Sequence record: PZ379176.1
Strand: one strand, 5' to 3'
DNA length: 64,000 nucleotides
Origin: a phage
Below, piece after piece: positions 12,280-13,472 of the stretch. Within the stretch, counting starts at the first letter, position 1, and each line of letters opens with the position of its first letter. Both the position numbers and the translations under genes were made by a program. Under the pieces are notes generated by a model that was given only the letters and a program-made list of their open reading frames with translations, had not been told where the DNA came from and made no database searches.

Positions 12280-13472
12280 ATGACTACTCGTATCCGTGTT
12301 CTTCCTTATGGCCCTTCTGATTCAGTTCGTGAACTTACTTCTGCAATTAACACTAAGATTCAGGAACTTCGCTTAAATGCTAACGTAATGTCTCTGGTAT
12401 CAGAAGGCTCTCGTTATCGTTCTCGAGTTGGTGATATTGTTGTCAACTATGGAAACCGTCGATATAATGATGCTTTCTTTGGTGGTGCAACTGTATTGAA
12501 CTCTGTGGTTGCCTTGAACCGAGCCGCTAACAAAATGACAGCATTTCAAACTTTGGAAGCTGCTGGGGTACATACTGTAGAATACACAAACAGTGCTGCT
12601 CAGGCTTCAGAGTGGACTCTGGATAGTGTTGTTTATGAACGTGCTATTCTGAATGGTCATTCTGGAGAAGGTATCACTGTTCGTCTTCAGGGTGAAGGTG
12701 TAGCTCCCGCCCCCTCTATACCCGTGGCATTCTAGGCCCACGTCGTGAATGGCGTGTTCATGTGTTTGAAGGTGTTATCACCTATGTTCAGAAAAAGATT
12801 CGCCGTAATGGTTATCGTGAAGATCCTTCCTATCGTGAAGACGTTCGAAACCATCATACTGGTTGGGTTTATTCCTCAAACTTCCAAGATGCGCCGCCTG
12901 ATCAGGTTCTGATTCAAGCCCACAAAGCTGTATCTGCTCTGGGTTTGAACTTCGGTGCTGTTGACCTGATTAGCAAAGGTACTAACGCTTGGGTTCTGGA
13001 AGTTAATACAGCTCCGGGCCTGACTGGAACAACTCTGGAAACTTACACTCACAACATCGTTGAGTTTGTTAAGAGTTTCTCTGGTGTTGATCCTGACTAC
13101 CGCGTTGCTTACGAACTGCCTGTTGAAGAAGTGGAAGAGTTTGCTGAATCAGCAGATGACGAGAACTTTGCATTGACAGCTGAACCAGTTGTTGAAGAGT
13201 CTTCGGAGCCTGTTCCTGAAACAATGCAAGTGGAAGAACAAGGGTTAGAGATCAACCCTGTAACCCGTCGTACTTTACGTCGTGGTTATTACATCGCTAA
13301 TATCAAGCACCCTGAGAATGGTTCAACTGTAGCAAGTAATGTGATCTTGTTCTTCTGTGGTCGTAACTTCTACCGCTCTGGGTGGAATGCACCGATTGGT
13401 GATCGCCAGCTTGGTCGTGTGTTGCAGATTAACAGTCTTACCCTGAATGATGGCACTGTTGTAAACTACTAA
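12280..13472 (+). CDS. RimK-like ATP-grasp ligase, encoded in two frames (12280..12735 and 12762..13472) with a frameshift near a C5 run at 12710-12714
   Basis: First ORF carries the pre-ATP-grasp region (GHSGEGITV); second carries REWRVHVFEGVI and FGAVDLI...WVLEVNTAPGL; both frames open over 12696-12735. Confidence 0.55.

What the first reader, a model, noticed from the sequence alone, without database searches (positions are those of the whole stretch)
12690..12765. ATP-grasp ligase is split by a frameshift at a C5 run
The N-terminal part (frame of 12280) and C-terminal part (frame of 12762) of a single RimK-like ATP-grasp fold lie in different frames that overlap over 12696-12735, next to the run CCCGCCCCCTC. 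This is a sequencing indel at a homopolymer, an inactivating mutation, or a programmed frameshift.
Basis: seen in the sequence. Interest (0 to 1): 0.5.

Follow-up and report, generated by a model that had tools for sequence, protein, structure and literature searches.

The report
One-base homopolymer gap splits ATP-grasp gene
A phage ligase gene looks split in two only because one C is missing from a run of Cs, and since the same kind of one-base gap also breaks this phage's DNA polymerase and tail-fibre genes, it is almost certainly a sequencing error and not biology.

Summary
ORF 12280..12735 and the frame open over 12696..13472 are the two halves of one gene, the phiEco32 gp80-type ATP-grasp enzyme (397 aa) of a Kuravirus phage. 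The window reads CCCGCCCCC (C5 at 12710-12714). phiEco32 and ShigP1 read CCCGCCCCCC there, and 57 of 60 listed relatives carry one more base across a 131-nt query centred on the site. Adding one C restores a protein identical to that of Shigella phage ShigP1.

The cause is most likely a homopolymer under-call in sequencing or assembly (about 0.85):
- Every isolated 1-nt indel between the window and phage SkaterBoy is a deletion in a window homopolymer.
- Three others also break conserved genes: DNA polymerase (G5 to G4, unique to the window), a 1005-aa tail-fibre protein (C6 to C5), and the neighbouring glutamine amidotransferase (A6 to A5).
- Three sibling GenBank records from one sewage study in Egypt share some of these gaps, in a pattern that fits no single tree.
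- Two of those records lose the base at a different spot in the same C-rich tract.

A programmed frameshift is rejected. The run is not conserved, relatives are in frame, there is no slippery heptamer and no downstream RNA structure. A genuine inactivating mutation cannot be excluded without reads (about 0.1). This is an ordinary finding of low interest.

The parts
12280..12735 (+). N-terminal fragment of the phiEco32 gp80-type ATP-grasp enzyme: 151 aa, of which the last 5 (SIPVAF region) are out of frame. It covers the pre-ATP-grasp domain and most of the central lid domain.
   Evidence: ORF list and translation. phrog_2599 positions 41-187, E 5e-53. Alignment with full-length homologues.
12696..13472 (+). 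C-terminal reading frame of the same gene, open from 12696. ORF callers start it at GTG 12762, which has no Shine-Dalgarno-like sequence within 20 nt upstream. It holds the conserved PLYTRGI...REWRVHVF hinge, the LEVNTAPG (E-x-N) catalytic motif, an acidic linker and a small C-terminal beta domain.
   Evidence: Translation. phrog_2599 positions 186-452, E 6e-128, and phrog_20552 for the last 82 aa. Invariant columns E241 V242 N243. Model.
12706..12714 (+). C-rich tract CCCGCCCCC, with C5 at 12710-12714. phiEco32 and ShigP1 have CCCGCCCCCC, so one C is missing here and this is the site of the frame change.
   Evidence: DNA alignments. 57 of 60 listed records carry one more base. Adding one C restores a 397-aa protein identical to ShigP1's.
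11594..11598 (+). A5 run inside the neighbouring glutamine amidotransferase gene (9807..11836). Relatives have A6. The gap removes the C-terminal ~77 aa from the frame. Same class of lesion as the one in the finding.
26168..26171 (+). G4 run inside the DNA polymerase gene. All 60 listed relatives have one more base. It splits the 614-aa polymerase into 25454..26179 and 26194..27297. Same class of lesion, in an essential gene.
49250..49254 (-). C5 run on the + strand, inside the 1005-aa tail-fibre/virion protein gene on the - strand (about 49385 down to 46369). 59 of 60 listed relatives have one more base. As written the protein stops after 52 aa.

Best explanation
The window is a Kuravirus (phiEco32-like) coliphage genome. 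The split gene is the ordinary single-copy, 397-aa gp80-type ATP-grasp amidoligase of this genus. In the window one C is missing from the tract CCCGCCCCCC, so gene callers see a 151-aa ORF and a 236-aa ORF. The missing base is most likely a homopolymer under-call made during sequencing or consensus building, and does not reflect the phage DNA. The real phage very probably has C6 and makes the full-length 44-kDa enzyme.

Shown: the deletion, its position, the restoration of the gene by one base, and the co-occurrence of identical lesions in essential genes.

Inferred: that the lesions are technical. No reads are available.

The intact protein is a three-domain ATP-grasp enzyme joined by a disordered acidic linker to a small beta domain. 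It sits in a conserved module with a class-II glutamine amidotransferase, two further amidoligases and a gamma-glutamyl cyclotransferase. The module has been proposed, not demonstrated, to make or attach a peptide-like compound such as a cell-wall modification.
For: 1. Relatives are in frame. phiEco32 phi32_80, ShigP1_00116 and Bas90_0077 are single 1194-nt CDSs. phiEco32 and ShigP1 show C6 against C5 in the window. 57 of 60 listed records have one more base.

2. One added C gives a protein with 0 differences from ShigP1 and 2 from phiEco32, so there is no other sign of decay.

3. Against SkaterBoy, the seven isolated 1-nt indels are all deletions in window homopolymers: 1951, 11594, 12710, 20390, 26168, 49250 and 58355. 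Five of roughly 95 aligned SkaterBoy runs of 5 or more bases are shortened and none lengthened, against 3 length changes among roughly 2,300 runs of 3-4 bases (the ATP-grasp site is not in this count because SkaterBoy has CCCCTC there). The window has no C6 run at all.

4. Three of these gaps break other conserved genes:
- DNA polymerase is split at G5 to G4, and all 60 listed relatives have the extra base.
- The tail-fibre protein is truncated after 52 aa at C6 to C5, and 59 of 60 relatives have the extra base.
- The glutamine amidotransferase is shifted at A6 to A5.
One added base restores each to full length. A plaque-forming phage cannot lack its DNA polymerase.

5. The distribution among three sibling records from one sewage study in Egypt fits no single tree:
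- The amidotransferase gap is in all three.
- The tail gap is only in EcK-vB.
- The polymerase gap is in none.
- In the ATP-grasp tract, EcM-vB1 has CCCGCCCCC like the window, but EcK-vB and EcP-vB have CCGCCCCCC.
This is what a miscalled C-rich tract looks like.

6. EcM-vB1 carries many further homopolymer deletions of its own and another split gene, GGACT.
Against: - No reads or quality values are available, so the technical origin is inferred.
- Polymerase slippage in vivo also favours homopolymers.
- The ATP-grasp and amidotransferase gaps lie in one accessory module and are shared with sibling records, which could reflect a real lineage-specific loss of that module.
- The sequencing platform of the window is unknown.
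Confidence: 0.85

Rival explanations
1. This is a genuine inactivating 1-nt deletion. The phage lineage really carries C5, the ATP-grasp enzyme is a fresh pseudogene, and perhaps the neighbouring amidotransferase is too. In that case the accessory amidoligase module was lost during propagation on the isolation host.
For: The gap is shared with EcM-vB1, and the same tract is hit in EcK-vB and EcP-vB. The amidotransferase gap in the same module is shared by all four sequences. The gene is an accessory 'moron'-class gene in PHROGs, so its loss need not be lethal.
Against: The same window has identical lesions in the DNA polymerase and a tail-fibre protein, which cannot be real in a viable phage, so the sequence is demonstrably unreliable at runs of 5 or more. 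The siblings carry two different alleles in the tract, and the sharing pattern fits no single tree. No second lesion has accumulated, because the repaired protein is identical to ShigP1's. The gene is kept intact in nearly all of about 96 related records. Neither fragment is on record as a called protein elsewhere.
Confidence: 0.1
2. This is a programmed -1 ribosomal frameshift, or transcriptional slippage, at the C run, which yields the full-length enzyme from two frames as a regulated event.
For: A prolyl-tRNA on CCC (12712-12714) could in principle re-pair with CCC one base back (read from the sequence). Programmed frameshifting is known elsewhere in this phage group, in the capsid gene (PMC7881722).
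Against: The two-frame layout is absent from 57 of 60 listed relatives and from 119 of the 120 best database homologues. The C run itself is not conserved: SkaterBoy and AidaStucki have CCCCTC, and more distant phages have GCTCCTCTG, all synonymous changes in an in-frame gene. There is no X XXY YYZ heptamer in the zero frame (GCC CCC TCT). The downstream 85 nt fold no better than shuffled sequence, z = -0.69. A C5 run is far shorter than the A/T runs known to support transcriptional slippage (general knowledge).
Confidence: 0.01
3. These are two independent genes that happen to be adjacent, a naturally split ATP-grasp enzyme with subunits that assemble.
For: Gene callers annotated two CDSs ('metal ion binding protein' twice) in EcM-vB1 and EcP-vB.
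Against: The break falls inside the fold, just before the invariant L146-Y147-T148 hinge motif. The second ORF's GTG 12762 lies 22 codons inside the conserved region and has no Shine-Dalgarno-like sequence upstream. No homologue family with this split was seen among the 120 best hits.
Confidence: 0.01

Closest known systems
phiEco32 gp80 (phi32_80, ABY52881.1, 'ATP-grasp enzyme, putative amino acid ligase/glutaminyl transferase') and its orthologue in Shigella phage ShigP1 (XOF09000.1); PHROG family phrog_2599
   Same: The locus is the same and so are the neighbours: glutamine amidotransferase, two small ORFs, ATP-grasp, two small ORFs, gamma-glutamyl cyclotransferase, then primase/helicase. 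DNA identity is 98.4-99.9% over 1.7 kb. After adding one C the protein is identical to ShigP1's and differs from phiEco32's at 2 residues.
   Different: The only difference is the missing C at 12710-12714, which splits the ORF in the window as written.
RimK / LysX-ArgX / D-Ala-D-Ala ligase group of ATP-grasp amidoligases (e.g. PDB 5zct, 3vpb, 1iow)
   Same: The fold is the same three-domain fold over about 290-320 aligned columns. TM-score normalised to the target is 0.70 for RimK 5zct_A (rmsd 3.6) and for ArgX 3vpb_B, and Foldseek E is about 4e-13 for Ddl. The E-x-N motif region aligns with RimK and Ddl by sequence.
   Different: Sequence identity is only 12-19%. Scores are far below the curated family cut-offs: TIGR00768 gives 32 bits against 143.4, and PF08443 gives about 16 against 21. 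There is an extra acidic disordered linker and an about 80-aa C-terminal beta domain (phrog_20552) that is absent from RimK. The substrate is unknown.
Homopolymer-length errors in consensus sequences from platforms that under-call runs (general knowledge; platform of this window unknown)
   Same: All the changes are single-base deletions. They are concentrated in runs of 5 or more, recur in similar contexts in sibling records, and break genes that must be intact.
   Different: This cannot be confirmed without reads.
Programmed -1 frameshift in the capsid gene of phiEco32-like phages (PMC7881722)
   Same: Both involve two overlapping frames in a phage of the same group.
   Different: The capsid frameshift is conserved and gives two detected products. 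The ATP-grasp split is absent from relatives and lacks a slippery site and a stimulator.

Membership tests
ATP-grasp superfamily | A complete three-domain ATP-grasp fold formed by one polypeptide that spans both window fragments | tested here: met
   The AF2 model of full-length homologue P0001 (99% identical to phiEco32 gp80) has mean pLDDT 84.6. Foldseek against the PDB aligns 288-337 columns to whole RimK, ArgX/LysX, Ddl and PsnB chains, with TMt up to 0.70 and E down to 4e-13. The break, at residue ~145, lies in the middle.
ATP-grasp superfamily | Conserved C-terminal metal/ATP-binding E-x-N motif | tested here: met
   L240 E241 V242 N243 T244 A245 are invariant in 42 homologues. This stretch aligns with the corresponding region of RimK and Ddl.
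RimK family sensu stricto (TIGR00768 / PF08443) | Score above the curated family cut-off | tested here: not met
   TIGR00768 gives 32 bits against a cut-off of 143.4 for the intact phiEco32 protein. PF08443 gives 15.9-16.7 bits against a cut-off of 21. Some distant members of the phage family do carry a precomputed PF08443 hit. The annotation 'ribosomal protein S6 glutaminyl transferase' is therefore a name and not a tested function.
phiEco32 gp80 family (phrog_2599) | Full-length match to the family profile, at the conserved genomic position | tested here: met
   The two fragments match contiguous profile positions 41-187 and 186-452. The locus is syntenic with phiEco32, ShigP1 and SkaterBoy. 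The repaired protein is identical to ShigP1's.
Programmed -1 ribosomal frameshift | The two-frame arrangement is conserved among relatives | tested here: not met
   57 of 60 listed records are in frame. The best homologues are single ~400-aa proteins.
Programmed -1 ribosomal frameshift | Slippery heptamer X XXY YYZ in the zero frame, conserved at the nucleotide level | tested here: not met
   The zero frame reads GCC CCC TCT. The run varies synonymously among relatives, as CCCCTC or GCTCCTCTG.
Programmed -1 ribosomal frameshift | Downstream stimulatory RNA structure | tested here: not met
   The MFE of 12716-12800 is -19.1 kcal/mol against a shuffle mean of -17.05, z = -0.69.
Homopolymer sequencing/assembly artefact | The indel lies in a homopolymer and is one of several of the same kind and direction in the same sequence | tested here: met
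   There are seven isolated 1-nt indels against SkaterBoy, and all are deletions in window runs. Runs of 5 or more are hit far more often than runs of 3-4.
Homopolymer sequencing/assembly artefact | The same lesions break genes that a viable phage must have | tested here: met
   DNA polymerase and a 1005-aa tail-fibre protein are broken as written and restored by one base.
Homopolymer sequencing/assembly artefact | Read-level support: mixed or low-quality run length in the pile-up | not testable with these tools
   No reads or quality values are available for the window.

The most novel reading that the evidence does not exclude
The C-tract and the A-run in the neighbouring amidotransferase are real, recurrent slippage sites. 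On this reading a sub-lineage of Kuraviruses switches off, or has lost, its amidoligase module. This could be escape from a host defence that senses the module's product, which would explain why sibling phages carry two different one-base deletions in the same 10-nt tract.
Probability: 0.06. Interest if true: 0.35.

Novelty: not a real feature. Interest (0 to 1): 0.05.

Why it matters
It matters mainly as quality control. This window, and three similar GenBank records, carry single-base homopolymer gaps that turn single genes into pairs of 'hypothetical' or misnamed ORFs; the halves are annotated 'metal ion binding protein' twice in EcM-vB1 and EcP-vB. Any gene count, pseudogene call or frameshift claim drawn from this sequence needs checking against relatives. 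The biology behind the gene is still an open question: no function has been demonstrated for the conserved Kuravirus module of an ATP-grasp enzyme, a glutamine amidotransferase, two further amidoligases and a gamma-glutamyl cyclotransferase. The frameshift adds nothing to that question.

Tried and rejected
- Pfam scan of the fragments and of a hand-fused protein gave only sub-threshold RimK and Ddl hits. PHROGs, NCBIfam, PDB sequence search and structure prediction were needed to settle the fold.
- The primary paper predicting the function of the phiEco32 amidoligase module (Iyer et al. 2009, Mol Biosyst 5:1636, PMC3268129) is not held. Only a second-hand statement of its proposal was found: cell-wall modification preventing superinfection (PMC10580990).
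- A full-text search for 'phiEco32' plus 'ATP-grasp' and for 'Kuravirus' plus 'frameshift' found nothing on this gene being frameshifted. The only frameshift described in the group is in the capsid gene.
- Exact look-ups of the 151-aa and 236-aa fragment proteins in the assembly collection found no record. There is thus no independent assembly with the same split, though absence from that index is weak evidence.
- RNA folding downstream of the C run, as a test for a frameshift stimulator, gave nothing above shuffles.
- I checked whether the window is one of the deposited records. It is not. The best whole-region identities are about 98.5% (SkaterBoy) and 98.1% (EcM-vB1), so its provenance and sequencing platform remain unknown.

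Full report
**What is in the sequence**

The window reads ...GGT GAA GGT GTA GCT CCC GCC CCC TCT ATA CCC GTG GCA TTC TAG in the frame of ATG 12280. That ORF ends at 12735 after 151 codons. The frame of GTG 12762 is open from 12696, right after TGA 12693-12695, to the stop at 13470-13472. It reads RCSSRPLYTRGILGPRREWRVHVFEGV....

The tract CCCGCCCCCTC lies at 12706-12716, with C5 at 12710-12714. Passing from the first frame to the second requires a -1 shift, which is the same as one base missing.

**What the locus is**

The window is a Kuravirus (phiEco32-like) coliphage genome. The 1.7 kb around the site is 98.4-99.9% identical to phiEco32, ShigP1, FS2B, SkaterBoy and others, and 96 phage records match it. 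The window is not itself any deposited record, because the best long-range identities are about 98%.

In phiEco32 (phi32_80), ShigP1 (ShigP1_00116) and SkaterBoy (Bas90_0077) the region is one 1194-nt CDS. It is annotated 'ATP-grasp enzyme' or 'ribosomal protein S6 glutaminyl transferase'. It lies between a glutamine amidotransferase plus two small ORFs on one side, and two small ORFs, a gamma-glutamyl cyclotransferase and the primase/helicase on the other.

**The lesion**

Aligned with phiEco32 and ShigP1, the window lacks exactly one C, reading GCCCCC where they read GCCCCCC. A 131-nt query centred on the site matched a stretch one base longer in 57 of the 60 listed records. Only EcM-vB1, EcK-vB and EcP-vB, three records from one sewage study in Egypt, are the same length as the window. 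Inserting one C into the run gives a 397-aa protein with no differences from the ShigP1 protein and two from phiEco32 gp80.

**One fold, not two genes**

- The two window fragments match contiguous parts of a single PHROG profile, positions 41-187 and 186-452 of phrog_2599.
- Of the 120 best hits among 627 database homologues, 119 are single proteins of 362-451 aa, down to 36% identity; the 120th is a 244-aa fragment.
- In an alignment, the match hands over from fragment 1 to fragment 2 at GVAPAP|LYTRGI, just before the invariant L146-Y147-T148.
- An AlphaFold2 model of a full-length homologue (mean pLDDT 84.6) has a compact domain over residues 1 to about 275, a disordered acidic linker at 287-330, and a small beta domain at 331-397.
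- Foldseek aligns the first part over about 290-320 columns with whole ATP-grasp enzymes. RimK 5zct_A gives TM 0.70 (target-normalised) at rmsd 3.6, ArgX 3vpb_B gives 0.70, and Ddl gives E about 4e-13.

By sequence the protein is only a distant relative. TIGR00768 gives 32 bits against a cut-off of 143.4, and PF08443 gives about 16 bits against 21. 'RimK-like fold' is therefore right, but 'RimK family member' or 'S6 glutaminyl transferase' is not established.

The break separates the N-terminal and lid parts from the hinge and the E-x-N catalytic motif (LEVNTAPG, invariant). I infer that neither fragment alone would be active. GTG 12762 lies 22 codons inside the conserved region, with no Shine-Dalgarno-like sequence in the 20 nt upstream.

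**Why it is most likely an artefact**

I compared the whole window with SkaterBoy and EcM-vB1. Outside divergent patches, where paired indels are just alignment noise, the window differs from SkaterBoy by seven isolated 1-nt indels. All seven are deletions in the window, and all lie in homopolymers:

| Window position | Change | Location |
|---|---|---|
| 1951 | C5 to C4 | intergenic |
| 11594 | A6 to A5 | glutamine amidotransferase |
| 12710 | C6 to C5 (relative to phiEco32 and ShigP1; SkaterBoy has CCCCTC) | ATP-grasp |
| 20390 | A5 to A4 | intergenic |
| 26168 | G5 to G4 | DNA polymerase |
| 49250 | C6 to C5 | tail-fibre protein |
| 58355 | T3 to T2 | intergenic |

Run statistics agree. Five of roughly 95 aligned SkaterBoy runs of 5 or more bases are shortened and none lengthened, while runs of 3-4 are almost untouched (the ATP-grasp site is not in this count). 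The window contains no C6 run at all.

Three of the other lesions break conserved genes:
- **DNA polymerase.** It is split into 25454..26179 and 26194..27297. All 60 listed relatives, including the three Egyptian records, have the extra G.
- **Tail-fibre protein.** The 1005-aa protein stops after 52 aa as written. 59 of 60 relatives have the extra base, and only EcK-vB shares the gap.
- **Glutamine amidotransferase.** It loses its C-terminal ~77 residues. The gap is shared with all three Egyptian records, and the 37 other listed records have A6.

Adding one base at each site restores a full-length protein. A phage that forms plaques cannot have a truncated DNA polymerase, so the sequence is demonstrably unreliable at such runs.

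**An incongruent sharing pattern**

- The amidotransferase gap is in the window and all three siblings.
- The tail gap is in the window and EcK-vB only.
- The polymerase gap is in the window alone.
- In the ATP-grasp tract, the window and EcM-vB1 read CCCGCCCCC, while EcK-vB and EcP-vB read CCGCCCCCC. That is one base lost from the same 10-nt tract but placed differently.

A single inherited mutation cannot produce this pattern. Recurrent miscalling of a difficult tract can. EcM-vB1 also has many further homopolymer deletions of its own, and another split gene, GGACT, which is intact in the window.

**Programmed frameshift rejected**

Relatives are in frame. The run is not conserved at the nucleotide level. 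SkaterBoy and AidaStucki have CCCCTC, and more distant Kuraviruses have GCTCCTCTG, all encoding Ala-Pro-Leu. The zero frame GCC CCC TCT offers no X XXY YYZ heptamer. The 85 nt downstream fold no better than shuffles, z = -0.69. The only frameshift described for this phage group is in the capsid gene (PMC7881722).

**Residual alternative**

A genuine 1-nt deletion cannot be excluded without reads. It would be a very recent inactivation, because nothing else has changed in the gene. The co-occurrence of a gap in the neighbouring amidotransferase would then suggest loss of the accessory module. I give this about 0.1.

**Function of the intact gene**

Nothing has been demonstrated. The module holds a class-II amidotransferase with N-terminal Cys, two further amidoligases, the ATP-grasp enzyme and a gamma-glutamyl cyclotransferase. 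Iyer et al. 2009 proposed that it modifies the cell wall or makes a peptide-like metabolite. I know this from memory and from a second-hand citation in PMC10580990, because the primary paper was not available. From the fold, the most likely chemistry is ATP-dependent formation of an acyl-phosphate on a carboxylate, followed by amide-bond formation with an amino group, as in RimK, LysX and Ddl. This is inference.

**Verdict**

The feature is almost certainly a sequencing or assembly artefact in an otherwise ordinary, already annotated phage gene. Interest is low.

Noticed in passing
window 11594-11598 (gene 9807..11836, + strand): The glutamine amidotransferase next door is also frameshifted, by an A6 to A5 gap. 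As written it runs to a false stop at 11789, and the true C-terminal ~77 aa, a Cys-rich zinc-ribbon-like tail, sit in ORF 11624..11836. The gap is shared with EcM-vB1, EcK-vB and EcP-vB only.
   Followed up: yes
window 26168-26171 (ORFs 25454..26179 and 26194..27297, + strand): The DNA polymerase is split by a G5 to G4 gap that none of the 60 listed relatives has. One added G restores a 614-aa protein with 1 difference from SkaterBoy's.
   Followed up: yes
window 49250-49254 (gene ~49385 down to 46369, - strand): The 1005-aa tail-fibre/virion-associated protein is truncated after 52 aa by a C6 to C5 gap. ORF callers then pick an internal ATG (939 aa). Only EcK-vB shares the gap.
   Followed up: yes
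window 9807-9812: The glutamine amidotransferase starts with ATT followed by TGT (Cys), 7 nt after AGGTGGA. Relatives annotate this ATT start. The mechanical ORF list therefore begins the gene only at TTG 10146. A non-canonical start directly before the Ntn nucleophile Cys is unusual.
   Followed up: partly
window 1951-1954, 20390-20393, 58355-58356: Three further one-base homopolymer gaps relative to SkaterBoy lie in intergenic DNA (C5 to C4, A5 to A4, T3 to T2). They are the same class as the coding lesions. The one at 20390 is shared with EcM-vB1.
   Followed up: partly
window 13225-13472 (last ~82 aa of the ATP-grasp gene): The C-terminal beta-rich domain matches its own PHROG family (phrog_20552, 82 aa, unknown function). 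It is joined to the ATP-grasp body by a disordered acidic linker (model residues 287-330). It may be a substrate- or target-binding module.
   Followed up: partly
L002/L006 (EcM-vB1, PV574017.1), e.g. record 23930-24347: The sibling GenBank record EcM-vB1 has many homopolymer and dinucleotide-repeat deletions of its own relative to the window, and a split gamma-glutamyl cyclotransferase (GGACT) that is intact in the window (13979..14398). EcM-vB1 and EcP-vB both annotate the two ATP-grasp halves as 'metal ion binding protein'.
   Followed up: partly
window about 56740-58330, - strand (capsid gene and downstream Ig-domain ORF; coordinates inferred from SkaterBoy 5211..6793): phiEco32-like phages are reported to make a longer minor capsid protein by programmed frameshifting (PMC7881722). 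The corresponding region of the window was not examined.
   Followed up: no
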